Positions 2,141 through 37,148 of a DNA stretch of 64,000 nucleotides are shown in pieces. The translations under genes were made by a program, and so were the position numbers. Location of the stretch: NCBI GenBank assembly GCA_000999095.1, contig LCFP01000001.1:138230-202229 (forward strand), given 5' to 3'. The DNA comes from Candidatus Gottesmanbacteria bacterium GW2011_GWA2_43_14. Lineage in GTDB: Bacteria > Patescibacteriota > Microgenomatia > 2-02-FULL-39-11. Every line of letters starts with the position of its first letter. The first letter of the stretch is position 1. Below the pieces are notes generated by a model. The model did no database searches. It worked only from the letters and a program-made list of their open reading frames with translations, and was not told where the DNA came from.

Positions 2141-3252
2141 AAATAGCGTCTTAATATTTCCTCCAATTCCGCCATCCTTTTTTTATAATTGTGGTCGGCG
2201 AGCGTCCTTTTTTGACCGGCCCGGGCAATTAACTCTCTTCTTTTATCGTCGGCGAGAAAGTATTTCACTTTTTCCAACAGTTCGTCAACCGATCCATAAT
2301 CTTCAATCTCCTGCCCGACTTTAAACAAATCAGGTAAATTATTCTTGCGGTCGCTGATCAAAAGTGCGCCCATGCCGGTTGCCTCAAATAAACGCATATT
2401 ATTGGCATTGTCTTCGGCCACATCGATATGCCGGTTGATGACGATCTTTGCCCGGGCTAATATCCGGTACATGTCTAAACCCCAGGCCTGGCCATGGTAA
2501 GCCCGCCGCAACGGCGAGAAAGGATTGCCCGGAGATGTATATTGTCCCCAAAAATCCAGGCCGGCCGATTTTGCCACTGTTTCCAGCATTTTTGTCCCCT
2601 GCCGGTGATAAGGTGTCACGCTTCCCACGAAAACTGTCTGCAGATCTCGCGAGACCGCCCCGATTTTTTTCAGTACCCGGCGCTCAAAAGCCAATTTCAA
2701 ATATTCGCTTTTTTTGCCCATTTTCCTTAAACGCGTCACAAAATGGGGAAATGAGGTGACCACCAGATCAAAATACTGAAAGTATTTTCCGGCCGGTAAT
2801 GGCGAAGCAATCTGGGCGACGGCCAGTTTTACAAATCTTTTCATCAGCCGCAGAGTCTCCGGTTCGAGTAAAGTCATATCCTGACAATAAATAATATCCG
2901 GAGCATACTTCTTGATTTGGGCCAGGATTGTCTGTTGCATCCAGGCGGGACGGCCTAAAAAACGGTAAGAGTACGGCAGGCGGGCAAGATCGTCCATCAG
3001 GCCGCTTTGAGACAGGTGGAGTCCGTTTTCCTCTGCCCACTTCCGCTGAAGAATTTCATCGTTGGCTACTATGTCTCTTGCTTCAAACCCCTCTTTTTGC
3101 AAATTATAGGAATAAAAATCAGACGTGCCGAAAAACTGATCCATTAAAAGTCTCAGGTGTTTATCATAAGATAAACTTACGGCTTCAGGATGCTCCCTGA
3201 AAAAGTCACCCAAGAAACGGGGATAATAACTGTCAATAAAAACGATTTTCAT
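2137..3252 (-). CDS. GT-B fold glycosyltransferase (GT1/GT4-like, CgeB-like)
   Basis: C-terminal GT4-type motif FEATGMGALLISD with downstream conserved Glu. The N-terminal half is of the CgeB/DUF3880 type. Four-nt overlap with neighbours. Confidence 0.55.
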   Translation of the reverse strand: MKIVFIDSYYPRFLGDFFREHPEAVSLSYDKHLRLLMDQFFGTSDFYSYNLQKEGFEARDIVANDEILQRKWAEENGLHLSQSGLMDDLARLPYSYRFLGRPAWMQQTILAQIKKYAPDIIYCQDMTLLEPETLRLMKRFVKLAVAQIASPLPAGKYFQYFDLVVTSFPHFVTRLRKMGKKSEYLKLAFERRVLKKIGAVSRDLQTVFVGSVTPYHRQGTKMLETVAKSAGLDFWGQYTSPGNPFSPLRRAYHGQAWGLDMYRILARAKIVINRHIDVAEDNANNMRLFEATGMGALLISDRKNNLPDLFKVGQEIEDYGSVDELLEKVKYFLADDKRRELIARAGQKRTLADHNYKKRMAELEEILRRYL

Positions 3253-4164
3253 TTATCTTTTTATCCTTATTTTAATACCCACGGATCTGATGATATATCC
3301 GGCTGCATAAAAAACCGGGCTCAATTCCTCAACCAGCCACTGTTTAAAATTATTATGGCTGAATATTCTGACCGACGCCCTAATGGAAAAAACAATCAAT
3401 CCCCCCGTATATTTAAAAAAGGATAAGACAGCCCTGGCCGGATTATCCTCTAGATATACAAATTGTGAAGATCCGGATGCGTATGCCCTCTTCAACTGGT
3501 AAAACACGGTCATTTTATACGCTGATACCAAATGACTGACTTTCATTTCCGGGATATAGAAAAATTGTATTCCTTTTTTGTTGAGACGCGAGAATAACTC
3601 CGTTTCCTCACCCAGGGACAACTCTTCCCCTTTCATTCCCAGAGAAGTCCGGAAATTTCCGAATTTCCGAAACAGATCCTTCCTGAAGATCATATTGGAA
3701 CCTGAAAAAGTTTCCCCCTTCTTTAAAATCCGTTCATTATCTCCCCAAAACCTTGCTTCATATTCGTCCTTAAACCACGGGGGTTTCTTGCTTGTGTAGA
3801 AAGGATAAATGGGTCCGCCGAAAACGGAAACATGCAAATGATTTACGATAGTTTTTTGGGCAACCGAAAGATAATTTTCATCGGCAAGGGCATCATCATC
3901 GATAAAGGCAACAAAATCTCCGATTGATTCCGCGATACCCTTATTCCTGCTTCCGGCCAATCCGCTGGTACCTTCGAAAACCGTTTTCAATCTGGGCATT
4001 CCCTTATTATCAGGTAGGGGGATTTTTTTGGGATTTCCCGGATTATTATCAACCAGGATTATCTCATACTCATCTTTCGGGAACTTCAAACTAACCAGTT
4101 TCTTCAGACATTTTCCCAAAATACCGGGATGGTTATAGGTGGCAACGACTACGGAAAATATCAT
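3253..4164 (-). CDS. GT2 family glycosyltransferase
   Basis: N-terminal FSVVVATYNHPGILGKCL ... EIILVDNNPGN, DxD-like FIDDDA, GT-A fold length. Confidence 0.7.
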   Translation of the reverse strand: MIFSVVVATYNHPGILGKCLKKLVSLKFPKDEYEIILVDNNPGNPKKIPLPDNKGMPRLKTVFEGTSGLAGSRNKGIAESIGDFVAFIDDDALADENYLSVAQKTIVNHLHVSVFGGPIYPFYTSKKPPWFKDEYEARFWGDNERILKKGETFSGSNMIFRKDLFRKFGNFRTSLGMKGEELSLGEETELFSRLNKKGIQFFYIPEMKVSHLVSAYKMTVFYQLKRAYASGSSQFVYLEDNPARAVLSFFKYTGGLIVFSIRASVRIFSHNNFKQWLVEELSPVFYAAGYIIRSVGIKIRIKR

Positions 4165-5093
4165 TTCATCATCCTTTTGAATTTTCTTAGGGCATTTTTA
4201 ATCAGCGATGTTTCATTCCGCAAGGTAATCCAGCTCTTTCTTTTTTCCTTTTCCTTCAACTCCCATTTTTTAATAAACCCTGCCATGAAAGGAAAAAATT
4301 GGTATTTGTTGAGGATCAGATCCCTTGAGAAAGAAACGGCTTCATGGTTTTTTTTCCAGAGATTGCTTTCGGTAATTTCTTTTATTTTACGGTCAACGCC
4401 TTTTTCGTTAATATCAATTACCGCCATCGACTCATTTGGGAAATAATCGGATATATTTGTGCAACCGTAATAAATCGGCATGGTAAAGGCAAGAAAACAG
4501 TCGGCGAGTTTCTCGCTCCAATAATGCGGTCCTCTATAATTTTCTATGATCAGCGAATAACGGTAAGGAGCCAAAGCTTCCCACTTATCTTTAATATAAT
4601 TTAAACCTTTACCGAATAAATCAAAATCTACTTCATTCCGGATTCCCCTGATGAAATTCAGCCTCTCCCACTGTCCTCTAAATTCCGTTTTATCAGATGA
4701 AATACAGGAAAGTTTTTTTTGCTTGCGGAGATATTTCTCTCTTTTTAACTGATCATAGCTTTTATCGATATGCCATGGTAAAGCGGGTTGTGTATGGATA
4801 AAACGGTTTTCCCTAAGGCTTAGGTCCTGCATAAAAACCTGGGTATATACTTTATCTGCGTTATGGAAGTACTTAAAATACTCATTAGGAGGCTCCTGCA
4901 GGACGCACCAGATATTTTCCGGATAGCACTTTACCCTGACATCTCTTGAGGGGTAATTGGAAACTATAACATAATCGCATTCCTCTATTTCAGCATCGGT
5001 AAATTTGATATTATCCCATAATCCGGATGATTTCGGGGTTTGTCTCATAATATCGGGACTGTACCAGGATTTTACTATCCTAACTGTTTTCAT
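4161..5093 (-). CDS. Fucosyltransferase-like glycosyltransferase (GT10 alpha-1,3-FucT / GT56 WecF-like motif set)
   Basis: LIIENYRGPHYWSEKLADCFLAFTMPIYYG matches the FENSxxxxYVTEK...IPIYWG signature of GT10 fucosyltransferases. Confidence 0.5.
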   Translation of the reverse strand: MKTVRIVKSWYSPDIMRQTPKSSGLWDNIKFTDAEIEECDYVIVSNYPSRDVRVKCYPENIWCVLQEPPNEYFKYFHNADKVYTQVFMQDLSLRENRFIHTQPALPWHIDKSYDQLKREKYLRKQKKLSCISSDKTEFRGQWERLNFIRGIRNEVDFDLFGKGLNYIKDKWEALAPYRYSLIIENYRGPHYWSEKLADCFLAFTMPIYYGCTNISDYFPNESMAVIDINEKGVDRKIKEITESNLWKKNHEAVSFSRDLILNKYQFFPFMAGFIKKWELKEKEKRKSWITLRNETSLIKNALRKFKRMMK

Positions 5094-5107
5094 ATTGTTG
5101 AACGGAT

Positions 5108-6592
5108 TTACATCGGAATCCTTACTGATTTTTTTACCTGACGCAAGTTATCAACAAGAAAAATAACGGCTTTTTCTTTATTCGCGCGGATCAGCTTTTC
5201 TTTTAAAGCATCCATATCGCTGCAGGATTTTATGTTTCTTTCAGCATAATAAAGTATCTGGGGTTCAATAAAACCGCCGGGATACCCGCATAAATAGACC
5301 ATTTCATTATCCAAAACCCGCTCTTTAATGGTATACCCGAGACTTTTATAGCTTGTGTCAAAAGTTGCGTCATGATAACGAAAGTAATAATAGACGACGG
5401 AGATTGATATAAAAAGGCATATGGCAGACGCATATAAAATTTTCATAAATTTGCCATTAGAGAAAACCTGCATAATATATATCAAACTTAATGAAGTGAT
5501 GACCGACAAAAATAAGGATGTCTTCAAAACTGAAAAACTGTGGTTGGAATTGAAATTGAAAAAGACAAGATAATGCAGTATTACCGGGCATAACGAAAAA
5601 TAAAGAAGATGGCCTGATTTTTTTGATAAGAGCTTTACGGAGATAAGCCTCTTTTTACGGATAAGAAACAGGGCAATCATGATAAAAATAAAGGCAGGTA
5701 AATAGTTAATGTAGTAGAAATAAACGATGTTTAAATAAGGTTTTGCCGAAAAAAACAAACCGCTGCGGTCCTGATATTTTTGCCACATCCCGGAAAACAT
5801 TTCGCCTGCCCCGGCAATTCTTGAATACTGAAGGAGAGTGAGAAAAACCGCCATAAATGAAGCACTGCCCGAGACAACGGCAATTTTTTGATAAATTGTG
5901 TCTTTCCTCTTAAATATGGCAATTAAAATAAGCGATAGGGAAAAAAGCAAGCCGATCCATTCACTGTACGCCATAAAAAAAGAGACGATAAAAAACAGTG
6001 AAAAATACATATTTGTCCTTGATTTTTCATTAAATAAAATATTCATTACCAAATACGTTGATATAACGAAAAAAACCTGGACAAAAATATCCACAAAATA
6101 TAAGTTTTGGTGAAACCAAAGATTTCCTGAGATGAATAAATAGACAATAAATCCGATAAAAGCAAATTTACCGGGTAATTTCCCCTCTTTAACCGGAAAT
6201 AATACCGAAAGGGTCAAATAGACAAAGTAAGAGGCAACCAGATGAATAAGTAAATTTAATATGTACAGGCTTAAAACTCCGGATGGCACTTTAAAAATCT
6301 GAAAAACAAAATAGGGGAAAATAAAAGCAAACGGTGGATAGGAAATATAATAATAATTTCCGTAAATATCTTTTATTCCTCCAAGATTTGAAATATGTCT
6401 GTCATTTTCGTTCGGAAAGGTATAAACAGGGCTGAAATTGTACTGTTTTATGCCGACTTTCTCCCAAATCTTCAAAGTCAACAGCGTATGAGCGGTAATA
6501 TAACCGTTAAAATCCAGATCCCTTTTGAGGTTTTCGAAACGGAAACTTAAGGATAATAAAAAAAATAAAATAAATACCAGAAATTTATTCAT
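5108..6592 (-). CDS. Polytopic integral membrane protein of unknown function (candidate polymerase, ligase or GT-C)
   Basis: 494 aa, more than 10 predicted hydrophobic helices, no recognizable soluble-domain motifs. Embedded in the glycan locus. Confidence 0.4.
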   Translation of the reverse strand: MNKFLVFILFFLLSLSFRFENLKRDLDFNGYITAHTLLTLKIWEKVGIKQYNFSPVYTFPNENDRHISNLGGIKDIYGNYYYISYPPFAFIFPYFVFQIFKVPSGVLSLYILNLLIHLVASYFVYLTLSVLFPVKEGKLPGKFAFIGFIVYLFISGNLWFHQNLYFVDIFVQVFFVISTYLVMNILFNEKSRTNMYFSLFFIVSFFMAYSEWIGLLFSLSLILIAIFKRKDTIYQKIAVVSGSASFMAVFLTLLQYSRIAGAGEMFSGMWQKYQDRSGLFFSAKPYLNIVYFYYINYLPAFIFIMIALFLIRKKRLISVKLLSKKSGHLLYFSLCPVILHYLVFFNFNSNHSFSVLKTSLFLSVITSLSLIYIMQVFSNGKFMKILYASAICLFISISVVYYYFRYHDATFDTSYKSLGYTIKERVLDNEMVYLCGYPGGFIEPQILYYAERNIKSCSDMDALKEKLIRANKEKAVIFLVDNLRQVKKSVRIPM

Positions 6593-7398
6593 CTGTCCTT
6601 AACGGCCAGAATATACATTTGATCACCTGAAAAAGGCCGTATCAGTTTAAACCTGCTTATTAAATAGTTAAACGTATTGTATAGACTATTGGCTATTTCG
6701 GAGAAATTTCCGAAATGGCAGATGATTTTATAACCAAGCGGAAGAATGGACAGTCTCAGGATTCTGAATTTATTTTCAGATAAAAGGTATTCAATACCCA
6801 CAGGGCTGAAATGGGAATAATGCTCGTTTGGTACCCAGCCCTCCCAGTACCTTCCCAACAGTTTTGCGACTGAACCGGTATAGTTAGTTTGAGACAGAAA
6901 CAGCAGGCCGTCTTTTTTTAATAATTTCCGGCATTTTTTTACAAATAGGGACGGATCAGGATTATGTTCAACAACATGAGAGGCAACCAGGATATCAAAA
7001 TAATTTTCCGGAAATTTTATCCTGCCGAAATAACCCTGCCTGACATTGAGCCGTCTCTTTTTACAAAAAGCAATTGCCCCTTTGGATATGTCAACTCCCT
7101 GCGCCCGGTACCCGGCTTTTCCCGCCTCTTCCAGTAAATAACCGGCTCCGCAACCGATATCCAACAAATTTCCCTCAGGTTTCACGTTTTTAATATAATC
7201 AAGAATTAACCCGGAATAAGCAGTGTAAGCCTGAACGTCTTCCTCACCTTTTTGATAGAATCGGTTTTCCTCATATTTATCTTCAGGCGCCGGGATGGTT
7301 ATGGCATTGGTACAGCTATCACATCGGTAAATTGAACTGCCGCGGAAGGGATTGAGTAAAAAATGAAGAGATGAAGAATTACAGATAAGGCATTTCAT
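6589..7398 (-). CDS. Class I SAM-dependent methyltransferase with N-terminal zinc-ribbon
   Basis: CLICNS...CDSC zinc-ribbon (CxxC-x17-CxxC). Motif I LLDIGCGAGYLL and post-I DILVASHVVEH. Typical of sugar O-methyltransferases in O-antigen loci. Confidence 0.7.
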   Translation of the reverse strand: MKCLICNSSSLHFLLNPFRGSSIYRCDSCTNAITIPAPEDKYEENRFYQKGEEDVQAYTAYSGLILDYIKNVKPEGNLLDIGCGAGYLLEEAGKAGYRAQGVDISKGAIAFCKKRRLNVRQGYFGRIKFPENYFDILVASHVVEHNPDPSLFVKKCRKLLKKDGLLFLSQTNYTGSVAKLLGRYWEGWVPNEHYSHFSPVGIEYLLSENKFRILRLSILPLGYKIICHFGNFSEIANSLYNTFNYLISRFKLIRPFSGDQMYILAVKDR

Positions 7399-8465
7399 AA
7401 ATCGGGGTAGGTGCTGTTAATCCAGGTATTGGCAGTAATGTCGATATGTTTGCTTTTCTTAATAGAAGTCAGCATAAACAGAATTAAATCCCGCTCTTTT
7501 ATTCTTACTTGTTTTCTGAATGACAGATCTTTATATAATTGAAAGACAGGTATTCCCCAGTCGGCTCCCAAACAACAAATTTTGAACCAATAGTCAAACA
7601 ACAGTTGTTCAAATATTTTCCGGTCATAAACTTTGTTCTCTCCGTTTGCCTGACATAATTTTTGCAGCCAATATTTAGCTTTAACAAGCGCTTTCAGGGT
7701 CCAACCGTCTTTTTTCCGCTCTAAACTGTCATGTACAAGAATTTCCTCTTCAGTAGGAGCAAGACCCATTTTCTCCAATGATGCGGCAAATATCCTTCTG
7801 GTGCAATTTTCTATTTCCGGGGAAGTTTTATCGGTTAAATTCCCTTTATATTCGCGGTATAAAGAAAAAACCCGGGGTATGTTTGCCAGCCGCAGATGTT
7901 GAGCCAGCCTTGACCATAAATCAAAATCAGGAGCGGCATTAAATGAGCTGCGGAAACCGTGCTTTTGGACTGCAGCTTTCCTGATCATTACGGCTGACTG
8001 GGTGAAACAGTTTCTGAACAAAAGCACCGATTTAATGATTTCAGGCCGACATACGTGTTTAAATACGCGACCGGTGAGTTTATCCTCATCATCAATTACT
8101 TTAACCCAGCTGCCGGTCAGGGAAATTTCCCTGTTCCTATCCATGTAATCCCATTGTTTTTCGAGACGCTGCGGCAGAGCAATGTCATCACTGTCCAGAA
8201 ATGCAATGAATTCCCCCCGGCATTCCCTGATGCCTTTATCGCGTATTTTTGCCAATCCAAGCCTTTTGGAAGAATTTATTAATCTGATCCTTTTATCGGT
8301 GAATGAATTGACTATTTGAATGGTTCCATCAAACGAGGCATCATTCACAATCACCAGCTCAAAATCCCTTAAAGTTTGACATAAAATACTCTCAATGGCC
8401 TGCTTAATAAATCTTTCCCCGTTATAAACGGGCATCAGTATGCTGATTAACGGATTTAAAGTCAT
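7395..8465 (-). CDS. GT2 family glycosyltransferase
   Basis: ISILMPVYNGERFIKQAIESILCQT..ELVIVNDASFDGT and DSDD (DxD). Confidence 0.75.
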   Translation of the reverse strand: MTLNPLISILMPVYNGERFIKQAIESILCQTLRDFELVIVNDASFDGTIQIVNSFTDKRIRLINSSKRLGLAKIRDKGIRECRGEFIAFLDSDDIALPQRLEKQWDYMDRNREISLTGSWVKVIDDEDKLTGRVFKHVCRPEIIKSVLLFRNCFTQSAVMIRKAAVQKHGFRSSFNAAPDFDLWSRLAQHLRLANIPRVFSLYREYKGNLTDKTSPEIENCTRRIFAASLEKMGLAPTEEEILVHDSLERKKDGWTLKALVKAKYWLQKLCQANGENKVYDRKIFEQLLFDYWFKICCLGADWGIPVFQLYKDLSFRKQVRIKERDLILFMLTSIKKSKHIDITANTWINSTYPDL

Positions 8466-9304
8466 ATTTTTACCCAGGTTTCGGGAATTAAATCACCGGT
8501 ATCGGAAGGATTATTGTCAAACCATCTGAGCGGGCTTATGATAACTTTTTTTGTATAACTGTTAAGCCATGCCGCCCACCAGCTGAATGTACTGTTGGCA
8601 ATTATATGGTGTCTGCACAAACTCATTAGCCTCATATCTTCCCAGGATTCTGTTTTGACTTCCCTGTCAATAAAAACAGCATTAACGGGCAGGTCATAAT
8701 TCATTTTTACATAATTTAGGTCATCTGAAAAAATGAAATAGACAGGTTTAAGAAGGCGCCTGCTGAGCAAAAAAATCGACTGACGATAATATTCACCGGG
8801 CAAAACATAGTGGTATTGGTCCTTTTGTTCAGATTTCAAATAATCGGTAATTCTGAAGTGGATGCTTACCGGCAATTTTGCATTCCGTATTAACGCCAAA
8901 TATTTTTTTGAGTCATTATTTAATTCTCCTGCAAAAGTAAAATTCCTGCGAATCAGGTCCTTAACCGGGAAAAAATATTTTTCGCTTTGGAAATCACCTC
9001 TAAGATAAGTACCGTCAGGCAGATCGAAAAAATCGGCATCGAAATGGAAATGTTTTTCCCGGTATTTTTTTTGAGCGGACTTTAATTTGGAAGTTATAGT
9101 TCCTATTTTCGCCAATATCCCGGAGGACTGTCTGATTTCAGCTTTAATGCGGAAAATATCCAGTTCAAAATTACGGAGTTTATAGCCCGCAAAATGGCTT
9201 AAATCCAAAACCAACCCCGTGCCCACTTTCTCCGCCAGCGAACGTCCGGCCGCATAGCGGAACATTTGATTGCCTAGACCCCCCAGCATTTCCACCGTAA
9301 TCAT
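8462..9304 (-). CDS. GT11 alpha-1,2-fucosyltransferase
   Basis: N-terminal LGGLGNQMFRYAAG (GT11 signature GGLGNQMFQYA), HFRITDY (HxRRGDY-like) and IFSDDLNYVK (GT11 FSDD motif). Confidence 0.7.
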   Translation of the reverse strand: MITVEMLGGLGNQMFRYAAGRSLAEKVGTGLVLDLSHFAGYKLRNFELDIFRIKAEIRQSSGILAKIGTITSKLKSAQKKYREKHFHFDADFFDLPDGTYLRGDFQSEKYFFPVKDLIRRNFTFAGELNNDSKKYLALIRNAKLPVSIHFRITDYLKSEQKDQYHYVLPGEYYRQSIFLLSRRLLKPVYFIFSDDLNYVKMNYDLPVNAVFIDREVKTESWEDMRLMSLCRHHIIANSTFSWWAAWLNSYTKKVIISPLRWFDNNPSDTGDLIPETWVKI

Positions 9305-9996
9305 TTACTGAAATAACTTCCTTTCAGGAAAATCGTATTAATAAATGTATCAGCGTAAATTTTATATCCCATTTCTAGAATCTGATTTATCAGTGATCTC
9401 TTTTTTTCACCCAAGCCGCGGACAGTAAAAGTCACTGTCTCAATACATAAAATTGCAGGTTTATTTTCCAGTTTTTTAAGTGATAGTATTATTTTCCTCT
9501 CCGAACCTTCAGCATCGATAAGCAAAATATCCGGCATTACTCCATGACACTGTTCACTGATGATTTTTTGAAGAGTGGTAACGGGTATCTTTTTCCGGTC
9601 CTCAAGTAAATAACCTTCCCTTATACATTTATCTGCTTCTTTTTTGGAGAACGTATTCAGAGTTGCTATATTGAAACAATAATAAGTCATGACCTTCGCA
9701 GAATCCGAAACACCGGCAGTGAGGTTTATGTCTTGTGATCTGTATTTTTGAAACAATTTGCTGGCTTCAGGATTCGGTTCCACATTCACTCCTCTTGAAC
9801 CGAGTTCATAAAACAGGGCGGTATTACTGATATGAAACGGGTGATAAGCACCGATGTCAAGATAAGTCGGTTTGTCTAAGCTAATTGCACGGCACAAATG
9901 GAACAAAATCAAATCTTCTCCGCACTGTGAATAACTTACTTGACAGTATCTGTTTATTATCATCTTAAATCGTGTAAGGTAGTGAAATACGTTCAT
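9301..9996 (-). CDS. FkbM-family methyltransferase
   Basis: YLDIGAYHPFHISNT ... VNVEPNPEASKLF matches the FkbM-family DIGAN.G...EP.P pattern. Confidence 0.6.
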   Translation of the reverse strand: MNVFHYLTRFKMIINRYCQVSYSQCGEDLILFHLCRAISLDKPTYLDIGAYHPFHISNTALFYELGSRGVNVEPNPEASKLFQKYRSQDINLTAGVSDSAKVMTYYCFNIATLNTFSKKEADKCIREGYLLEDRKKIPVTTLQKIISEQCHGVMPDILLIDAEGSERKIILSLKKLENKPAILCIETVTFTVRGLGEKKRSLINQILEMGYKIYADTFINTIFLKGSYFSK

Positions 9997-12734
9997 TTTT
10001 TCGGTCTTTTTTTTTCCTTTTGCCCGGAATCGGTTTTTGTCGCCAGTACTAAATAATTCGTTGTGAAATCTTCAATCTTTTTTATGTGTTCCAACTCCGC
10101 GAAAAAAACAGAAGGAATATTATATATAAATAATTGAATTACTTTTACCAACGGAATGAATAATGGAGATTTTTTATACAAAGCTTCGAGAATACCGTGA
10201 CTTCTCCATATCAGTTCTATGATATGCCAGTATAGTCCTCCGCTGTATTCAATTGAGTCAACCGTCAGTTTATTTTCAGGTAAAAATTTAAGGTACCAGA
10301 ATTTAGTAAACCCACCGTAAAAATGGTAAGGAATCTGATGAAGTCCGCTGCCTAAAGGAGAAGTAAGAATCAATTTTCCTCCGGATTTAAGTAATCTGCT
10401 CATTTCCTGTACCGCTTCAATCGGATACGGCACATGTTCTAACACTTCTGTGCATAAAATAACATCAAAACTATTATCAGGTAATGGTATGGATCTGATA
10501 TCGCTGATTACGTCAATTTTTCCGTAATTTAAATTCGGTGTCTGACAAAAATCTTGTGAAGTATAACGGCAATGATTTAAATATGATTTAAAAGGTGCTG
10601 ATCCTGCACCGACGTCTAAAACGGTTGATCCTTTGGGTAATTTCTTTAATTGCTCGATAGTCCAATCATGCCTCGTTTTCCAGGCTAGATTTGAAATTTG
10701 GAATGAATATGATGAATTAAATAATAAAAAAAAATTTCTTATGAGTTTGAATAATAAATTTTTACAGAGAGAAAATATATCAGTTACTTTTTTTGCTTTC
10801 TTCACCATCAGCAGTGCTGAAATTTTGTAAATTTTATTAATTAAATTTTCATCGATAGTTATTCTTTCCAACTTAAGATAATCTTTTATTTTTGACGGTT
10901 GCCATCTTGAGTAAAAACGCTCAGGATTCTCTTTAATTACTTTTTCCCAAATTTTCCATTTATCACCCTGATAAACACTTATACTTCCCGAGGTATTTAT
11001 TGTATCCGACAAAAAAGCAAAAACTTTAAATCCCTCGCTTTTCGCCCGAAAACATAAATCTATATCATCCATGTAATAAGGCGCATATGATTCATCAAGG
11101 TATCCGTATTTCTCCAGAAATGATTTTCTTAAAATCAACGGTCCTCTCATACAAGCATCAGTCTCAAATACCTTATGTTTTAACTCGGGGTCCGTATTTT
11201 CATCCTGTCTCCAGTAGACTTCATGTTCGTTAACGACAATCTGTCCTTTCCCCGTTAAGTTTTTCATGTCTTTAGGATAAAAATTTACACCTGCCAAGGC
11301 TCCTAATATGGCTATCTTCGGAGATTTCTCAAGAATTGAGACAGCTTCAAAAAAAATATTTCTGTCATAAATAAAATTATCATCCTGTAAAATAACGGCA
11401 TACTTTCCTGAAGATTTTTTCAATCCTAAATTATTAGTTTTGGTTTCAAAAATATTCGCTGTGACGTAAAAGGTTACGGGATACTGTTTTTTGTCCTTAT
11501 AAAAATTCCTGACGATATCTTCAGTCTGATCCTGACAGCCGTCAAAATAAATATGCAACTCACAGTTGCCATATTGTATTAATGCGCGATGAAGAAGTTT
11601 AATCAGCGGTTTAATGGTTCTTTCTTTGTTAAATATGGGTAAAATAACGCTGATCTTCGGATATAGATCGTTTTTTACCGCACCAATGACTGCTTCTTTC
11701 AGGGAACTTCTAAAATCAGCATGGAATAAACCGTAATATTCTTTTGTCTTCATTTTCCAGCGGTTGATTTCTCCTTTCGGCAGAGAAAGTGCTTTCAGCA
11801 TAATATTCCTGTTAATTTCAGAGTTAGTGCTTAATTCCAAATTTCCAAAAGGGGCAAAATCAATACCACAATTTCGTGACACTAACGGAATTAAACCGCT
11901 ATCCAAGGCTTCAACAGCTGTTCCTGCCTGGCCTTCTTCAAGAGAAGGAAATATAAAAAAATCACTATTCGCTACTATCCTGCGGTATTTTAAGTTGCCT
12001 GCGTCTACCCAACCGTAATGTTCAGCTTTATTTCCGAGAATCTTAAGGAAACGGTTAAGTTTTTGTTCATAAAATGAATTTGTCGGTAATCCCATTATCT
12101 TAAGATGAAATTTCCGGTCTAAAATCTGCGGTTGGGTAAAAAGAGAATATACAATATCAAATCCTTTCCGTAGACCGATTTCTGAGGTTAAGTAGATAAA
12201 TTCGGGTACACTCTTTTTTTTATTGATAATTTGGGAAATATATTCAGCTCCGTAATTAATCATTTTAATTTTTTGTTTAGGGATCCCGCGCTTTATATAG
12301 GTGTTGTAAGTTCTTATGTTACCCGCACAGATTATATAGTCTGCTGAATTTATTGATTGATCGATAGACAGAAAGTTCATTAAATCCCATCCGGCCAATG
12401 CTTTCAGATTTAAACTTTCTTTCAATAAAAACGATAGCAGTATCCTGTTTCTTTCCGCAGGATGCATATTAACGGCAAATAGAATACTTTTATTAATTTT
12501 GCATACCCTAAGAATTTCATTGAACTTATAATGGGTACCTACGAATAAATCGAATTCTTTTCCCCTGACGGAGTCTATTTCATTTCCATCAATATATGTA
12601 ATTTTTCCAATTTCAGACAAAATGCGGTATAAATTTCTGGCCAGTATTCCGGCTGAGGAATGCCAATACTTTTGTGATGTTGGATTCTTCGAAGGATCGA
12701 AATGAAATTTACTATAAGACAAAAGTATTTTCAT
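9993..12734 (-). CDS. Tri-domain fusion protein: N-terminal GT4 glycosyltransferase, central GT2 glycosyltransferase, C-terminal class I SAM methyltransferase (913 aa)
   Basis: GT4 motif EEGQAGTAVEALDSGLIPLVSRNCG (about aa 265-290). GT2 ISVILPIFNKERTI...ILQDDNF...YYMDDIDLCFR (about aa 350-600). MTase motif I STVLDVGAGSAPF and DVILCTEVLEHVPYP (about aa 700-830). Approximate nt spans: GT4 12734-11700, GT2 11690-10930, MTase 10640-10240. Confidence 0.7.
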   Translation of the reverse strand: MKILLSYSKFHFDPSKNPTSQKYWHSSAGILARNLYRILSEIGKITYIDGNEIDSVRGKEFDLFVGTHYKFNEILRVCKINKSILFAVNMHPAERNRILLSFLLKESLNLKALAGWDLMNFLSIDQSINSADYIICAGNIRTYNTYIKRGIPKQKIKMINYGAEYISQIINKKKSVPEFIYLTSEIGLRKGFDIVYSLFTQPQILDRKFHLKIMGLPTNSFYEQKLNRFLKILGNKAEHYGWVDAGNLKYRRIVANSDFFIFPSLEEGQAGTAVEALDSGLIPLVSRNCGIDFAPFGNLELSTNSEINRNIMLKALSLPKGEINRWKMKTKEYYGLFHADFRSSLKEAVIGAVKNDLYPKISVILPIFNKERTIKPLIKLLHRALIQYGNCELHIYFDGCQDQTEDIVRNFYKDKKQYPVTFYVTANIFETKTNNLGLKKSSGKYAVILQDDNFIYDRNIFFEAVSILEKSPKIAILGALAGVNFYPKDMKNLTGKGQIVVNEHEVYWRQDENTDPELKHKVFETDACMRGPLILRKSFLEKYGYLDESYAPYYMDDIDLCFRAKSEGFKVFAFLSDTINTSGSISVYQGDKWKIWEKVIKENPERFYSRWQPSKIKDYLKLERITIDENLINKIYKISALLMVKKAKKVTDIFSLCKNLLFKLIRNFFLLFNSSYSFQISNLAWKTRHDWTIEQLKKLPKGSTVLDVGAGSAPFKSYLNHCRYTSQDFCQTPNLNYGKIDVISDIRSIPLPDNSFDVILCTEVLEHVPYPIEAVQEMSRLLKSGGKLILTSPLGSGLHQIPYHFYGGFTKFWYLKFLPENKLTVDSIEYSGGLYWHIIELIWRSHGILEALYKKSPLFIPLVKVIQLFIYNIPSVFFAELEHIKKIEDFTTNYLVLATKTDSGQKEKKRPKK

Positions 12735-13960
12735 TTACGAATTCTCCACAGACTAGGAATAAGAAGATGGGCGGGAAAATTGGCAAAAGACTTATGTGAA
12801 GCAAAAGCAGGGGCACTGACAACTGTTAAATCTCCCATTTCAAAACCGTCAGTCACCAGATTTCCGTCAAGCCAGATCTGTGTTTCCAGAGTGTATTTTC
12901 CGGGAGATACATGAGGTAAATGAAACCGGAGGGAAATGCTTCCTTTTTTTTCTGTCATGTGCCGGACGTTCTCCAAGTGGTTATGCGAATAATACATTAA
13001 GGTATAATCCTCTTTTTTCCTCAGGGCAAACGAAAGACAGAGGTCATAGGACTTGTTGCCCGAGCCTTTGTATTCGGCCGTGATTTCCATCTGGCTTTCA
13101 GGAAACACCTCCGGTTCATCCTTGACGGAAATACCATTGACCCTGAAATTTATAAATTCAAGATTATATCTATTCAGTCTGATCGAAGCCGAAGATGTCT
13201 GTCTGGACTGCTGATAGGTATTTATAAGTTCATCGATGGCAGTCAGTTTACTGCTGCGGCCGTCTTTAATAATGATTCCCTTTAGGCATAATTTCTTAAC
13301 CATGCCCAAATTATGGCTGACAAACAGGATTGTCCTGCCTGATTGTGAGATATTTTCCATCTTGCCCAATGATTTCTGCTGAAAAGCCGTGTCCCCGACT
13401 GAAAGCACTTCATCGATCAGGAGTATTTCGGCCTCCAAATGGGCAGCCACAGCAAATGCCAATCTCATATGCATGCCTGAAGAATACCGTTTAACCGGTG
13501 TATCCAGAAACCGCTCTATTTCGGCAAAATCCACAATATCATCAAACTTTTTTCTGACTTCCACTCGTGACATACCCAAAATCGCTCCGTTTAAAAAGAT
13601 GTTCTCCCGACCGGTAAGTTCCGGATGGAATCCAGTACCGACTTCCAATAGGCTGGCAACCCTGCCTCTTAATACAGCTTTTCCCTCTGTGGGAGGTGTT
13701 ATTCTGGATAACACTTTAAGAAGAGTAGTTTTCCCGGCGCCGTTTCTGCCGATAATACCGACAATTTCCCCTTCCTTAACATTCAGGTCGATATCCTTCA
13801 AAGCCCAAAATTGTCCCATATCGGTCTTTTTATTGCCGGCGAGGACTTTAACGGGATCTGTAATCCAATTTGTTAATGAATCCCGGAGGGAATAATACGG
13901 TTGGCTGACCCCGTATTTATATTTTTTTGAGAGCTTGTTAATCTCAATGATCGGCTTCAT
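12731..13960 (-). CDS. wzt: ABC transporter ATP-binding protein Wzt/TagH-type with C-terminal glycan-binding beta-sandwich domain
   Basis: Walker A GRNGAGKTT, signature YSSGMHMRLAF, Walker B LLIDEVLSVGD, H-loop VSHN. About 160 extra C-terminal residues are predicted beta-rich, like the Wzt_C domain. Confidence 0.85.
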   Translation of the reverse strand: MKPIIEINKLSKKYKYGVSQPYYSLRDSLTNWITDPVKVLAGNKKTDMGQFWALKDIDLNVKEGEIVGIIGRNGAGKTTLLKVLSRITPPTEGKAVLRGRVASLLEVGTGFHPELTGRENIFLNGAILGMSRVEVRKKFDDIVDFAEIERFLDTPVKRYSSGMHMRLAFAVAAHLEAEILLIDEVLSVGDTAFQQKSLGKMENISQSGRTILFVSHNLGMVKKLCLKGIIIKDGRSSKLTAIDELINTYQQSRQTSSASIRLNRYNLEFINFRVNGISVKDEPEVFPESQMEITAEYKGSGNKSYDLCLSFALRKKEDYTLMYYSHNHLENVRHMTEKKGSISLRFHLPHVSPGKYTLETQIWLDGNLVTDGFEMGDLTVVSAPAFASHKSFANFPAHLLIPSLWRIRK

Positions 13961-13961
13961 A

Positions 13962-14789
13962 TCAGACTATGTCCGCGAAAAACTTTTCGGTTTTGGAGAA
14001 ATAGACGAATCCGGCTATGAGTATTAATAGAGAACTTACGGCAGAGACGGTTAATAGAAAAAAATCGGGGGTAGTACCGGAAAAAATTCCCCGTGACGCT
14101 TCAACTGCCCCCGACATCGGATTAAAAGCCATATAGATTTTATGTGACGGAGATAGAATGGAAAGCGGATAGATGACCGGAGTAATAAACAGCAGGATTT
14201 GGATAAAAAAAGGAAGGATATAGCGGACGTCCCTGTATTTGACGTTGACTGAGGCCAAAAACAGACCGATACCGGATGAGGAAAATATCGTTACCAATAT
14301 GGAAAACGGCAGCAGATAAATAATTCTGAGATTAGGCGAATGGCCGGTAACGACTGCAAAGATAAAAAGAATAAACAGGTTGATTAAAAAGTCGATAAAA
14401 CCGGTCAGCAAAGAAGACAAAGGTAAAATAATTTTTGGAAAATAAACTTTTTTGATAATGCTTTCATTTTCAATCATGCTGTTGGCTGCATGGGAAACAG
14501 AGTTGGAAAAATAGTTCCAAAAAACCAGGCCGGTTAGAACGAAAAGCGGATACGGCAGGTCCCCTGATGGAATTTTGGCAAAATTTCCGAAAAAGACGGT
14601 AAAGATAATTGTTGTTACCAATGGCTGGAATATTACCCAAAATATTCCCAAAAATGTCTGCTTGTACCTTACTTTTATATCCCGCCAGGAAAATATGTAA
14701 AACAATTCCCTGAAACGGACAATCTCGGCCAAATGAAAAACTCCGAATGATTTCGGGGAAATGACTGTTTCTCTTGACGATACTCTCAT
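13962..14789 (-). CDS. wzm: ABC-2 type polysaccharide exporter permease Wzm/TagG
   Basis: 275 aa, six hydrophobic helices, ABC-2 pattern. Directly downstream of wzt. Confidence 0.8.
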   Translation of the reverse strand: MRVSSRETVISPKSFGVFHLAEIVRFRELFYIFSWRDIKVRYKQTFLGIFWVIFQPLVTTIIFTVFFGNFAKIPSGDLPYPLFVLTGLVFWNYFSNSVSHAANSMIENESIIKKVYFPKIILPLSSLLTGFIDFLINLFILFIFAVVTGHSPNLRIIYLLPFSILVTIFSSSGIGLFLASVNVKYRDVRYILPFFIQILLFITPVIYPLSILSPSHKIYMAFNPMSGAVEASRGIFSGTTPDFFLLTVSAVSSLLILIAGFVYFSKTEKFFADIV

Positions 14790-14835
14790 TTTATTTGCGG
14801 AAATACCGTAATTATACCTGAAGTGAGCTTGCGAA

Positions 14836-16939
<2,104 letters not shown>

Positions 16940-16958
16940 TCAGTATATCCATATAGTC

Positions 16959-17801
16959 TTATTTAATCAATAATTTACGATAGATAAGTTTTGCTATAGT
17001 TGCATGCCATTTATGCAGACAATGAATAATTATTGAATTGCTGTGTTTTTTGGCCAACATATATTCTTCCTCAAACTGGTTTTCGGGAGACTTTACCGTT
17101 TTGGAAGACGGATGGACACGGTAGCATGCCAGGTAGTCATCCAGAAAATAAAGGGGGTATTTTTGCCAGATTCTCAACCAGTAATCGTAATCCATGCTGT
17201 AATGTAAATCAGTATCAAGTAATCCGACTGATTTAAAAATATCCCGTCTCCAGAAAGTTGCTGGCTGGGAGATAAAATTGATTATCTCCAGAGTCTGTAT
17301 CAAACGGAAATGTTTAAGCAGCATGTTTTTATAGGCAGTGATTGCTTTCCTTACTTCCCTGTTATTTAAATCAACAATCCGGCATTTTCCGGTGACCCAT
17401 AACGCCCGGGGATAACGGTGGAAAAAATCCGACACTTTTTTCAGGGAACCGGGCAGTAGATAATCATCGGAATTGATAAAACCGATAATTTCTCCCGTCG
17501 ATTTTCTGAAACCGCGGTTTAAAGCATCAGACTGCCCTTTATCCTTGCCGGAAGTCCAGTCAATTTGCCTGGTGTATTTTTTTAAAAGATGGGTCGTCCC
17601 GTCCTTCGAACCGCCGTCCATGACGATATATTCCAAATTAGGATATTTTTGCCCGAGAACCGACTTGATGGTTTGCTCTATAAACTGCCCCTGGTTAAAA
17701 GAGGGTGTAACAAGACTAATTTTTAGATTTCTTCCGGCCATTTTTTTTATTACTATCAAGAGCCAGTTTCCTGACCAGATCGGTAATTTCCTGCCTGACA
17801 T
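16959..17801 (-). CDS. GT2 family glycosyltransferase
   Basis: ISLVTPSFNQGQFIEQTIKSVLGQKYPNLEYIVMDGGSKDGT and INSDD. Confidence 0.7.
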   Translation of the reverse strand: MSGRKLPIWSGNWLLIVIKKMAGRNLKISLVTPSFNQGQFIEQTIKSVLGQKYPNLEYIVMDGGSKDGTTHLLKKYTRQIDWTSGKDKGQSDALNRGFRKSTGEIIGFINSDDYLLPGSLKKVSDFFHRYPRALWVTGKCRIVDLNNREVRKAITAYKNMLLKHFRLIQTLEIINFISQPATFWRRDIFKSVGLLDTDLHYSMDYDYWLRIWQKYPLYFLDDYLACYRVHPSSKTVKSPENQFEEEYMLAKKHSNSIIIHCLHKWHATIAKLIYRKLLIK

Positions 17802-18069: not shown

Positions 18070-18070
18070 T

Positions 18071-18751: not shown

Positions 18752-18760
18752 GACGGTATT

Positions 18761-37146: not shown

Positions 37147-37148
37147 AA

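What the first reader, a model, noticed from the sequence alone, without database searches (positions are those of the whole stretch)
9993..13960. GT4-GT2-methyltransferase triple fusion adjacent to Wzm/Wzt(CBM): candidate single-polypeptide polymerase plus chain-terminator
In ABC-transporter-dependent O-antigen systems such as E. coli O8/O9a, chain length is set by a terminator (WbdD kinase/methyltransferase) that caps the polymer. The cap is then recognised by the C-terminal carbohydrate-binding domain of Wzt. Here Wzt carries such an extra C-terminal domain. The gene immediately upstream encodes a 913-aa protein fusing two glycosyltransferase domains (GT4 + GT2) to a C-terminal class I SAM methyltransferase. 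That is a plausible polymerase-terminator fusion producing a methyl-capped polymer. The neighbouring FkbM-family and two class I methyltransferases are candidate additional sugar O-methyltransferases. This domain order is unusual.
Basis: inference. Interest (0 to 1): 0.65.

Follow-up and report, generated by a model that had tools for sequence, protein, structure and literature searches.

The report
Glycan polymerase with tethered methyltransferase
A candidate-phylum (Gottesmanbacteria) bacterium encodes, right after a sugar-chain export pump that carries a cap-reading domain, one 913-residue protein that joins two sugar-adding enzymes to a methyl-adding enzyme. This is a rearranged version of a known design, and comparison with relatives suggests the methyl-adding part is an optional add-on rather than the signal the pump reads.

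Summary
On the minus strand, wzm (13962-14789), wzt (12731-13960) and a 913-aa ORF (9993-12734) form a unit. The wzt/fusion and fusion/FkbM junctions overlap as ATGA. The fusion lies downstream of wzt, not upstream.

The fusion has a GT-B/GT4 module, a GT-A/GT2 module, a 41+24-residue helical linker and a class I SAM methyltransferase (MTase); the AF2 model has pLDDT 88.8.

The Wzt C-terminus fails a direct Pfam Wzt_C search. It is nevertheless a Wzt-type carbohydrate-binding domain (CBD) by profile (E 9e-8 to the Aquifex CBD) and by fold.

- No coiled-coil ruler exists in the fusion or anywhere in the window.
- In 118 family members, class I MTases (22) or unrelated FkbM MTases (8) are fused to the same GT4-GT2 core in several separate clades. 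Elsewhere they sit as free genes just downstream. This is strong evidence for polymerase-MTase coupling.
- Two pairs of close relatives differ by a clean presence/absence of this MTase type while their CBDs stay 81% and 89% identical.
- CBD-less Wzt loci also keep the MTases.

The fused MTase is therefore more likely an accessory, strain-variable O-methylase of the nascent chain than the terminator the CBD reads. Characterised precedents exist: WsaE, Klebsiella O7 ORF6 and WbbB. I rate it a new variant of a known kind, of moderate interest.

The parts
13962..14789 (-). Wzm, ABC-2 permease (275 aa)
   Evidence: Pfam ABC2_membrane 2.2e-21. Conserved just upstream of Wzt in about 17 related loci.
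13226..13960 (-). Wzt nucleotide-binding domain (residues 1-245)
   Evidence: Pfam ABC_tran 1.1e-22. The profile aligns to Aquifex Wzt 7k2t/8dku at 4e-96. NCBIfam nearest models are TagH and galactan Wzt, both below cut-off.
12731..13225 (-). Wzt C-terminal carbohydrate-binding domain (residues 246-409, plus stop)
   Evidence: No direct Pfam hit. CBD-only profile A5 hits 8dky/6o14 at 9e-8 and 5hno at 0.015. Nine of 13 sister CBDs hit PF14524. AF2 gives a beta-sandwich with pLDDT 87.9. Top Foldseek PDB hits are Wzt CBDs: 8dl0, 5hno, 7k2t, 8dky and 2r5o.
11670..12734 (-). Fusion protein, GT-B/GT4 module (residues 1-355)
   Evidence: Pfam Glycos_transf_1 / Glyco_trans_1_4 at 172-291. EX7E motif E267-E275 and GLRKG 187-191 are conserved. 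AF2 shows a double Rossmann fold. Foldseek hits include MshA, GlgM and TarM.
10860..11669 (-). Fusion protein, GT-A/GT2 module (residues 356-625)
   Evidence: Pfam Glycos_transf_2 1.3e-8. Invariant DGCxD, QDD, DACMRGPL and DDxD motifs. Foldseek hits include K4CP and SenB.
10635..10859 (-). Helical linker (residues 626-700): helices 631-671 and 674-697, with an amphipathic stretch containing basic residues at 649-668
   Evidence: AF2 secondary structure. Hydrophobic moment about 0.5 and no TM segment. The unfused homologues sampled in alignment A3 end shortly after the GT2 module with a short, mostly basic tail in this linker region. Not a long coiled coil.
9993..10634 (-). Fusion protein, class I SAM-dependent O-methyltransferase domain (residues 701-913, plus stop), here called 'mt11 subfamily A'
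   Evidence: Pfam Methyltransf_11 2.4e-15. Motif I VLDVGAG at 705-711. All 31 invariant family residues are retained. Profile hits RebM at 1e-10 and AtmM, with no WbdD hit. Rossmann fold by AF2.
9940..10788 (-). Segment of about 0.85 kb with no counterpart in the sister genome (encodes fusion residues ~649-913 and the first codons of the FkbM ORF)
   Evidence: blastn of window vs L001: 80% identity up to 10789, resuming at 9939. L001 has only about 100 bp between these points. The protein alignment joins P0002 residues 1-681 to the core and 671-892 to the window FkbM.
9301..9996 (-). Free FkbM-family methyltransferase (231 aa); ATGA overlap with the fusion stop codon
   Evidence: Pfam Methyltransf_21 6.8e-13. 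NCBIfam fkbM_fam above cut-off. Orthologous (63%) to the fused C-terminal domain of sister protein P0002.
14836..17801 (-). Upstream cluster genes: GT4 (14836-15996), Fcl-like GDP-6-deoxyhexose synthase (15980-16933), GT2 (16959-17801)
   Evidence: Pfam. NCBIfam GDPFucSynFcl 1.9e-84, below the curated cut-off. Syntenic in the sister locus.
1499..9304 (-). Downstream cluster genes: GT11 fucosyltransferase-like (8462-9304), GT2 (7395-8465), Methyltransf_23 (6589-7398), unannotated 494-aa membrane protein (5108-6592), GT10-like (4161-5093), GT2 (3253-4164), Glyco_trans_1_2 (2137-3252), MetW-like MTase (1499-2140)
   Evidence: Pfam. Synteny with L001, except that the 494-aa ORF is absent there.

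Best explanation
The region is the core of an ABC-transporter-dependent pathway for a cell-surface glycan in a Gottesmanbacteria (CPR) genome.

Shown:
- Wzm/Wzt is a polysaccharide exporter whose Wzt carries a divergent but genuine Wzt-type CBD.
- The next gene, joined by an ATGA start/stop overlap (which suggests translational coupling), encodes a member of a conserved two-module GT4-GT2 family. This family sits in that position in about 17 loci from several phyla.
- SAM-dependent methyltransferases of two unrelated folds (class I 'mt11' and FkbM) are repeatedly fused to the C-terminal linker helix of this core, or encoded immediately after it.

Inferred:
- The GT4-GT2 core is the chain polymerase, building an alternating two-linkage backbone from GDP-mannose-derived sugars on a lipid carrier at the membrane.
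- The amphipathic linker helix holds the enzyme at the membrane and serves as the attachment point for MTase modules.
- The tethered MTases O-methylate the non-reducing end of the nascent chain.
- In this genome the constant partner is the FkbM enzyme (free here, fused in the sister genome).
- The fused class I domain is an accessory, strain-variable second methylase. It adds a further methyl group to the terminal region. It contributes to capping and to surface-glycan diversity, but is not itself the determinant that the Wzt CBD needs.
- Chain-length control, if any, works without a coiled-coil ruler. The likely mechanism is kinetic competition between elongation and methylation within one polypeptide, as proposed for WsaE.
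For: Domain anatomy and motifs.

CBD identity.

Operon structure with ATGA overlaps.

Locus survey, 41 distinct loci including the window:
- Wzm-Wzt(CBD)-core are directly adjacent in about 17.
- mt11 is fused in the window, L004, L005 and L026.
- FkbM is fused in L001, L006, L007, L040 and L045.
- Free orthologues lie within about 1 kb downstream in L009, L010, L011, L014, L020, L032, L039, L041-L044 and L047.

NJ tree of 118 cores: mt11 fusions fall in at least 6 separate clades and FkbM fusions in at least 3. The window and its sister are nested in an unfused clade.

Accessory nature of the mt11 domain:
- A clean 0.85-kb presence/absence against the sister locus (80% DNA identity), with Wzt NBD 89% and CBD 81% identical.
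- A second clean 0.73-kb indel of a free mt11 gene between L019 and L032, with CBD 89% identical.

GDP-sugar context: an Fcl-like gene, GT11 and GT10-like genes in the window; ManC, PMM and GMD-like genes in related loci.

Precedents: WsaE is an MTase plus two rhamnosyltransferase domains encoded right after wzm-wzt. It makes a 2-O-methyl cap, and its methylation is chain-length independent in vitro (PMC2943079). Methyl caps are read by the CBD in Aquifex (PMC9445017).
Against: - No biochemical data exist. Polymerase activity, donor sugars and the methylated position are all inferred.
- The cluster holds seven other GT genes, any of which could contribute to or be the polymerase.
- A 1:1 fused MTase without a spacer is at least as natural for per-residue (internal) methylation as for capping.
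- The Solirubrobacterales loci combine the same MTases with a CBD-less Wzt. Methylation in this family is therefore not strictly linked to cap reading.
- The 19% divergence between the two CBDs could still hide a change of specificity.
- The NJ tree has no support values.
- The coiled-coil scan is a crude heptad heuristic, although it passed positive controls.
- The AF2 model is a monomer, so oligomeric coiled-coil formation by the 41-residue helix cannot be excluded.
Confidence: 0.4

Rival explanations
1. Internal methylation. The tethered MTase methylates one sugar of every repeat as the polymerase adds it. The product is a heavily O-methylated, relatively hydrophobic polysaccharide. The CBD-read cap, if any, is made by another enzyme, for example a terminal fucose added by the GT11/GT10-like enzymes.
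For: - The MTase is fused 1:1 with no spacer or ruler.
- MTases persist next to a CBD-less Wzt in Solirubrobacterales.
- CBD similarity is unrelated to MTase content.
- Many loci carry two MTases, matching a two-sugar repeat.
Against: - Presence/absence of the domain between close relatives means the backbone can be made and exported without it. This is compatible with a decoration but gives no positive evidence for internal sites.
- The characterised fused precedent, WsaE, methylates the terminus (PMC2943079).
- CBD-bearing Wzt proteins are, in all studied cases, tied to terminal caps (PMC9445017).
Confidence: 0.3
2. The fused class I MTase is the chain terminator, and its methyl cap is the ligand that the Wzt CBD must bind for export.
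For: - A CBD is present.
- All nine MTase-fused cores whose upstream side is visible lie next to a CBD-bearing Wzt.
- Methyl caps are read by CBDs in E. coli O8/O9a and Aquifex (PMC9445017, PMC3482155).
Against: - The sister genome lacks the domain yet keeps an 81%-identical CBD and the rest of the cluster.
- The L019/L032 pair shows the same pattern for a free gene of this MTase family.
- There is no coiled-coil ruler.
- There is no detectable relationship to WbdD beyond the shared class I fold.
Confidence: 0.15
3. The GT4-GT2 protein is not the polymerase. It builds an adaptor or adds a methylated side branch, and other GTs in the cluster polymerise the backbone.
For: - Seven further GT genes lie in the cluster.
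- The central GT genes diverge strongly between sister genomes, at 43-48% identity. This suggests that repeat-unit chemistry is set there.
Against: - The core is the most conserved GT across phyla (45-59% identity). It holds a fixed position immediately after wzt, as WsaE does (PMC2943079).
- The dual-GT architecture is typical of ABC-pathway polymerases (PMC11231755).
Confidence: 0.1

Closest known systems
WsaE of Geobacillus stearothermophilus NRS 2004/3a (S-layer glycan; PMC2943079)
   Same: One polypeptide with a methyltransferase domain plus two glycosyltransferase domains. It is encoded directly after wzm and wzt with overlapping stop/start codons. It works in a Gram-positive-type envelope. 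[quoted passage not shown]
   Different: In WsaE the MTase is N-terminal; here it is C-terminal. The WsaE GT modules are rhamnosyltransferases, whereas here the modules are GT4 plus GT2 with a GDP-sugar context.
Klebsiella pneumoniae O7 ORF6 and O12 WbbB (PMC11231755)
   Same: Terminator and two polymerase GT modules in one protein of an ABC-transporter-dependent pathway with a CBD-bearing Wzt.
   Different: Those proteins have an N-terminal terminator (MTase-kinase, or a Kdo transferase) separated from C-terminal GTs by an extended coiled-coil ruler. Here the order is reversed, and the linker is about 65 residues with no long coiled coil.
WbdD/WbdA of E. coli O8/O9a (PMC3482155, PMC5082667)
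   Same: A class I SAM MTase acts on a polymer made by a multi-GT polymerase. An amphipathic membrane-associating helix is present. The cap is read by the Wzt CBD.
   Different: WbdD is a separate trimeric protein with a coiled coil of about 200 Å. No sequence similarity to WbdD was detected by phmmer or profile search of PDB sequences.
Aquifex aeolicus WzmWzt with CBD (7k2t, 8dku, 8dky; PMC9445017)
   Same: Same Wzt architecture of NBD plus a C-terminal beta-sandwich CBD. The full-length profile aligns end to end, and it is the best structural and profile match for the CBD.
   Different: CBD identity is only 10-14%. In the profile alignment the window has no Trp at the position of Trp362, which caps the methyl pocket in Aquifex. 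The ligand therefore cannot be transferred.
Sugar O-methyltransferases RebM / AtmM (3bus, 6uv6)
   Same: Nearest solved relatives of the MTase domain by profile (1e-10) and by fold.
   Different: These are small-molecule glycoside tailoring enzymes and are not polymer-associated. The match covers only the SAM-binding core.

Membership tests
Wzt with C-terminal carbohydrate-binding domain (Pfam Wzt_C, PF14524) | ABC-transporter NBD of the Wzt/TagH type | tested here: met
   ABC_tran 1.1e-22. The profile hits Aquifex Wzt at 4e-96.
Wzt with C-terminal carbohydrate-binding domain (Pfam Wzt_C, PF14524) | Direct match of the C-terminal ~165 residues to the PF14524 model | tested here: not met
   No hit even at E<=10, for the isolated C-terminus or as a member of A5.
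Wzt with C-terminal carbohydrate-binding domain (Pfam Wzt_C, PF14524) | Homology to recognised Wzt_C domains through intermediates or a profile | tested here: met
   25 of 40 end-to-end homologues and 9 of 13 neighbouring-locus CBDs hit PF14524. The CBD-only profile hits 8dky/6o14 at 9e-8 and 5hno at 0.015, with nothing else below 0.1.
Wzt with C-terminal carbohydrate-binding domain (Pfam Wzt_C, PF14524) | Beta-sandwich (jelly-roll) fold like the solved CBDs | tested here: met
   AF2 pLDDT 87.9, eight strands. Top Foldseek PDB hits are 8dl0, 8dne, 5hno, 7k2t, 8dky and 2r5o, at E 1e-4 to 9e-4 and TM 0.5-0.6. Other Ig-like sandwiches score only slightly worse.
Wzt with C-terminal carbohydrate-binding domain (Pfam Wzt_C, PF14524) | Dimer with exchanged C-terminal strands; binds the capped non-reducing terminus | not testable with these tools
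   Only a monomer model was available. It has a detached last strand (164-169 of the domain) after a low-confidence loop, which is compatible with strand exchange but is not a test.
WbdD-type chain terminator | SAM-dependent methyltransferase fold | tested here: met
   Pfam Methyltransf_11 at 57.3 bits. Rossmann fold. RebM/AtmM matches.
WbdD-type chain terminator | Extended coiled-coil molecular ruler (~200 Å) | tested here: not met
   The longest helix is 41 residues. The heptad scan finds no segment longer than 36 residues in any of 56 window ORFs, while the positive controls GCN4 and tropomyosin were detected.
WbdD-type chain terminator | Sequence relationship to WbdD | tested here: not met
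   No WbdD chain appears among PDB hits for the protein (E<=0.01) or for the domain profile (E<=1e-3).
WbdD-type chain terminator | Modifies only the non-reducing terminal residue and stops elongation | not testable with these tools
   This needs glycan structure analysis or enzyme assays.
Multi-module polymerase-terminator proteins (WsaE, KpO7 ORF6, WbbB) | Two GT modules and a terminating module in one polypeptide | tested here: met
   The domain composition is met. The terminating activity itself is inferred.
Multi-module polymerase-terminator proteins (WsaE, KpO7 ORF6, WbbB) | Encoded next to wzm/wzt in the same operon | tested here: met
   ATGA overlap with the wzt stop codon. The same position is held in about 17 loci.
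Multi-module polymerase-terminator proteins (WsaE, KpO7 ORF6, WbbB) | Terminator at the N-terminus, separated from the GTs by a coiled coil (ORF6, WbbB) | tested here: not met
   The MTase is C-terminal and the linker is about 65 residues.
Multi-module polymerase-terminator proteins (WsaE, KpO7 ORF6, WbbB) | Sequence homology to WsaE, ORF6 or WbbB | not tested
   These sequences could not be retrieved with the available tools.
GT4 (GT-B, Glycos_transf_1) | Pfam match above cut-off, GT-B fold, EX7E motif | tested here: met
   27.9 vs 26.4 bits and 30.9 vs 27 bits, both marginal. Double Rossmann fold. E267-X7-E275 present.
GT2 (GT-A, Glycos_transf_2) | Pfam match above cut-off, GT-A fold, DXD-type acidic motif | tested here: met
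   35.3 vs 23.3 bits. Q450-D451-D452 invariant in 38 sequences. Foldseek hits K4CP and SenB.

The most novel reading that the evidence does not exclude
A ruler-less assembly line. A conserved GT4-GT2 polymerase uses its C-terminal amphipathic helix as a docking or fusion site for interchangeable O-methyltransferase modules of two unrelated folds. These modules methylate the chain as it grows, per residue or as a multi-methyl terminus. Gene-sized gain and loss of the modules gives CPR and other bacteria a quick way to vary a hydrophobic, methylated surface glycan. On this reading, methylation and CBD-gated export are uncoupled, and chain length is set without the coiled-coil ruler that current models treat as a hallmark of terminators.
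Probability: 0.3. Interest if true: 0.55.

Novelty: new variant of a known kind. Interest (0 to 1): 0.4.

Why it matters
ABC-transporter-dependent glycan assembly is understood mostly from a few Gram-negative O-antigen models. In those models a coiled-coil ruler protein caps the chain and the Wzt CBD reads the cap.

This locus and its relatives differ. They are spread across CPR (Gottesmanbacteria, Saccharimonadales), Actinobacteria, Desulfovibrionaceae and other groups. They show a compact alternative in which methyltransferases are bolted directly onto the polymerase, with no ruler. The modules are swapped, fused, split, gained and lost.

The fusion pattern is 'Rosetta-stone' evidence for a polymerase-methylase complex. 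The two natural presence/absence pairs offer ready-made experiments on two questions: whether methylation is a stop signal, an export ticket or just decoration, and how chain length is set without a ruler.

It also gives a first handle on surface-glycan biosynthesis in CPR bacteria. No paper in the searched library mentions CPR with Wzt, or Saccharibacteria with wzm. The general concept is already established by WsaE, WbbB and Klebsiella O7 ORF6, so the surprise is moderate.

Tried and rejected
- Direct Pfam scan of the Wzt C-terminus for PF14524: negative even at E<=10. This was superseded by profile and fold evidence.
- Word-indexed homologue search with the CBD alone: only 2 hits. The exhaustive phmmer search of 1.8 billion representatives found only 16 at E<=1e-3. 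The CBD clade is small and fast-evolving, and the full-length Wzt search was needed to bridge it.
- Looked for WbdD similarity by sequence and by profile: none.
- Looked for a coiled-coil ruler in the linker and in every ORF of the window: none.
- Tested whether CBD similarity tracks the MTase type present in the locus, as expected if the MTase defines the CBD ligand: it does not.
- Tried to transfer the Aquifex methyl-pocket residues: in the profile alignment the window has no Trp at the Trp362 position, so this was uninformative (PMC9445017).
- tblastn of the core against plasmids: only partial GT2 hits and no informative annotated relatives.
- NCBIfam: no model reaches its cut-off for the fusion.
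- Mann et al. 2019 (Glycobiology 29:822), the key survey of terminators and CBMs, could not be read. Whether it lists this architecture is unknown.
- Considered an assembly or frameshift artefact for the fusion/FkbM boundary. Rejected, because the stop position is shared by more than 20 homologues and the identical protein is on 6 contigs.
Full report
**What is there.** The whole 64-kb window is a minus-strand glycan-biosynthesis island from Candidatus Gottesmanbacteria GW2011_GWA2_43_14. The 913-aa protein is 100% identical to a database entry named 'type 11 methyltransferase'. The finding covers two ORFs exactly: wzt (12731-13960, 409 aa) and a 913-aa ORF (9993-12734). In transcription order the genes are:
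- GT2, an Fcl-like GDP-6-deoxyhexose synthase, and GT4
- wzm (13962-14789)
- wzt
- the fusion
- FkbM MTase (9301-9996)
- GT11, GT2, Methyltransf_23, a 494-aa membrane protein, GT10-like, GT2, Glyco_trans_1_2 and a MetW-like MTase

The wzt stop overlaps the fusion start, and the fusion stop overlaps the FkbM start, both as ATGA. This suggests one translationally coupled operon. GC content is 0.34-0.40 across the cluster against 0.44-0.47 elsewhere.

**The fusion protein.** Pfam finds three domains: Glycos_transf_1 / Glyco_trans_1_4 at 172-291, Glycos_transf_2 at 362-484 (with related GT2-type models extending to 587), and Methyltransf_11/23 at 692-797. An AlphaFold2 model built on 38 homologues has pLDDT 88.8 and pTM 0.72. 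It shows:
- a GT-B fold at 1-355
- a GT-A fold at 360-625
- two helices at 631-671 and 674-697
- a Rossmann methyltransferase at 704-900 with a helical lid

Foldseek against the PDB returns GT-A enzymes (K4CP, SenB), GT-B enzymes (MshA, GlgM, TarM) and sugar O-methyltransferases (AtmM, RebM). The catalytic signatures are present and conserved: EX7E E267-E275, DGCxD 398-402, QDD 450-452, DDxD 556-559 and motif I VLDVGAG 705-711.

**The linker is not a ruler.** They do not.
- The longest helix has 41 residues, about 6 nm. The WbdD coiled coil holds its catalytic domains about 20 nm from the membrane (PMC5082667).
- Residues 649-668 form an amphipathic stretch with basic residues (hydrophobic moment about 0.5), and there is no transmembrane segment.
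- The unfused homologues sampled in alignment A3 end shortly after the GT2 module, with a short, mostly basic tail in this linker region.
- A simple heptad scan detected GCN4 and tropomyosin along their full lengths. It found no segment longer than 36 residues in any of the 56 ORFs of the window.

The system therefore lacks the coiled-coil protein that Kelly et al. describe as a characteristic marker of this assembly strategy (PMC11231755).

**The Wzt C-terminal domain.** PF14524 does not hit the C-terminus even at E<=10. The domain belongs to a small, fast-evolving clade, with only 16 representatives at E<=1e-3 among 1.8 billion. The assignment nevertheless holds, for these reasons:
- Twenty-five of 40 homologues that align end to end with this Wzt hit PF14524.
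- The full-length profile aligns through the CBD of Aquifex aeolicus Wzt.
- A CBD-only profile of 13 domains from related loci hits the Aquifex CBD crystal structures at 9e-8 and the Klebsiella O12-type CBD at 0.015, with nothing else below 0.1. Nine of those 13 domains hit PF14524 individually.
- The AF2 model of residues 240-409 (pLDDT 87.9) is a beta-sandwich. Its best PDB matches are Wzt CBDs, including 8dl0, 5hno, 7k2t, 8dky and 2r5o, at E about 1e-4 and TM 0.5-0.6.

The second refutation criterion is therefore not met either. In the profile alignment the window has no Trp at the position of Aquifex Trp362, the residue that caps the methyl pocket there. The ligand cannot be inferred (PMC9445017).

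**Comparative genomics.** This changes the interpretation. The protein belongs to a modest family with a highly conserved GT4-GT2 core, 45-59% identical across phyla. Members occur in Gottesmanbacteria, Saccharimonadales, Solirubrobacterales, Motilibacter, Desulfovibrionaceae, Akkermansia, Paenibacillus and Marinamargulisbacteria.

Of 118 near-complete cluster representatives:
- 88 are core only (622-724 aa)
- 22 carry a C-terminal class I MTase
- 8 carry a C-terminal FkbM MTase, an unrelated fold

I fetched 50 loci, which together with the window reduce to 41 distinct ones, and scanned them with HMMs built from my alignments.
- In about 17 loci the order Wzm - Wzt(CBD) - core is directly conserved.
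- Where the MTase is not fused, orthologues of the same class I domain (E 1e-63 to 1e-104) or of the FkbM lie immediately downstream.
- Many loci have two MTases.
- The class I family splits into two subfamilies. Both occur fused and free.
- On an NJ tree of the core, class I fusions fall in at least six separate clades and FkbM fusions in at least three (no support values).

Repeated independent fusion of two unrelated MTase folds at the same point is strong 'Rosetta-stone' evidence that core and MTases work as a complex on the same substrate.

**Evidence against the terminator reading for this domain.** The sister Gottesmanbacteria genome (L001; P0002) has a syntenic cluster at about 80% DNA identity. 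Its GT4-GT2 core is fused directly to the FkbM domain, which is the orthologue of the free ORF at 9301-9996. The class I domain is simply absent.

In detail, window 9940-10788 has no counterpart in the sister, while both flanks align. Across this pair the Wzt NBD is 89% identical and the CBD 81% identical. These are among the best-conserved parts of the cluster. By contrast the central GT11, GT2 and MTase_23 genes are only 43-49% identical.

A second, independent pair shows the same thing for a free class I MTase gene. L032 has a 0.73-kb gene-sized insertion relative to L019, yet the CBDs are 89% identical.

Across 14 loci, CBD similarity does not follow MTase content. For example, two loci with the same MTase pair have CBDs only 15% identical. 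Five Solirubrobacterales loci keep the FkbM MTase, and one also keeps the class I MTase, next to a 255-261-aa Wzt with no CBD.

In this family, methylation is therefore tied to the core and the ABC pathway. The class I module behaves as an accessory, and the CBD does not obviously depend on it.

**Most likely mechanism.** The following is shown:
- the domain folds and motifs
- the operon structure
- the identity of the CBD
- the conserved cassette
- recurrent fusion and fission of the MTases
- the presence/absence polymorphisms

The following is inferred:
- The GT4-GT2 core is the polymerase for an alternating backbone made from GDP-mannose-derived sugars. Supporting context includes the Fcl-like, GT11 and GT10-like genes here, and the ManC, PMM and GMD-like genes in related loci.
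- The amphipathic linker helix places the enzyme at the membrane and anchors the MTase modules.
- The MTases O-methylate the non-reducing end of the growing chain.
- FkbM is the constant partner in this lineage, and the fused class I domain adds a second, strain-variable methyl group.
- Termination, if it is caused by methylation, works by kinetic competition rather than by a ruler. [quoted passage not shown]

I give this composite reading a probability of 0.4.

**Relation to known systems.** The concept has characterised precedents.
- WsaE of Geobacillus stearothermophilus is an MTase plus two rhamnosyltransferase domains, encoded after wzm-wzt with overlapping codons. It makes the 2-O-methyl cap of an S-layer glycan (PMC2943079).
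- Klebsiella O7 ORF6 has the order MTase-kinase-CBM-coiled coil-GT2-GT2, and O12 WbbB puts terminator and polymerase in one protein (PMC11231755).
- Methyl caps are read by Wzt CBDs in E. coli O8/O9a and in Aquifex (PMC3482155, PMC9445017).

This locus differs in domain order (MTase at the C-terminus), in GT families, in lacking any coiled coil, in the interchangeability of two MTase folds, and in host (CPR). No similarity to WbdD was detectable. Homology to WsaE, ORF6 and WbbB could not be tested. No paper in the searchable library links CPR or Saccharibacteria with Wzm/Wzt. That is absence from this library only, and the key survey by Mann et al. 2019 could not be read.

**Verdict.** This is a new variant of a known kind, of moderate interest (0.4). 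The most useful outcome is a testable system. Two natural presence/absence pairs and a ruler-less fused architecture can show whether methylation here is a stop signal, an export ticket or a decoration.

Noticed in passing
window 26483-38834 (also 21704-23323, 61207-62691, 1-1506, 42364-44640, 57931-61210): Seven tandem paralogues of PMT_2/GT-C-type membrane glycosyltransferases (528-597 aa) lie in a row. Further GT-C-like proteins, DUF2142, YfhO and PTPS_related membrane proteins are also present. This is an unusually large battery of extracytoplasmic glycosyltransferases in a small CPR genome.
   Followed up: partly
window 4000-16000: The Wzm/Wzt cluster has lower GC (0.34-0.40) than the rest of the window (0.44-0.47). 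This is typical of horizontally exchanged surface-glycan clusters.
   Followed up: no
window 5108-6592: A 494-aa, apparently multi-pass membrane ORF (judged from its sequence) has no Pfam or NCBIfam match and no counterpart in the otherwise syntenic sister locus L001. It is a second gene-sized difference between the two clusters.
   Followed up: partly
window 6589-9996 vs L001 12682-15378: The centre of the cluster is hypervariable between the two Gottesmanbacteria genomes. Identities are GT11 48%, GT2 43%, Methyltransf_23 49% and FkbM 63%, while the flanking genes are 60-89% identical. This suggests diversifying selection or cassette exchange of the serotype-determining genes.
   Followed up: partly
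window 17716-19891: DUF2304 (GtrA-like small membrane protein), a DPM1/GtrB-like GT2 (226 aa) and a GT-C protein (Mannosyl_trans2-like in the sister) lie side by side. This looks like a three-component system for adding a sugar outside the membrane.
   Followed up: no
L032 12977-13803 vs L019 12980-13075: A clean 0.73-kb gene-sized indel of a free class I MTase separates two Saccharimonadales loci that are 79-88% identical in DNA. Their Wzt CBDs are 89% identical.
   Followed up: yes
loci L004, L005, L026, L011, L044 and others: The class I MTase family associated with the core splits into two subfamilies, one with an ~11-residue insert after the second strand. Several loci carry one fused copy plus one free copy, or a class I plus an FkbM enzyme, so two methylases per polymerase is common.
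   Followed up: partly
L013, L015, L016, L024, L050 (Solirubrobacterales): Here the same core and FkbM MTase sit next to a short Wzt (255-261 aa) without any CBD, on the opposite strand. No CBD-like ORF was found elsewhere in the 20-kb loci.
   Followed up: partly
L040 1040-6509: A second, full-length paralogue of the GT4-GT2 core (649 aa) follows the first. The first appears to carry both FkbM-like and class I MTase segments in different frames, which may reflect a frameshift or a triple fusion.
   Followed up: no
window 38847-40244 and 53213-54382: An RNase_T exonuclease fused to a GIY-YIG nuclease domain (465 aa) sits in the middle of the glycan island. The tRNA-guanine transglycosylase gene is one of only three plus-strand ORFs in the greedy gene set for the window and the only sizeable one; the other two are 83 and 99 aa.
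   Followed up: no
window 49896-51341: A Wzx-type flippase (Polysacc_synt_3) is also present. The island therefore encodes both a flippase-dependent and an ABC-transporter-dependent export route.
   Followed up: no
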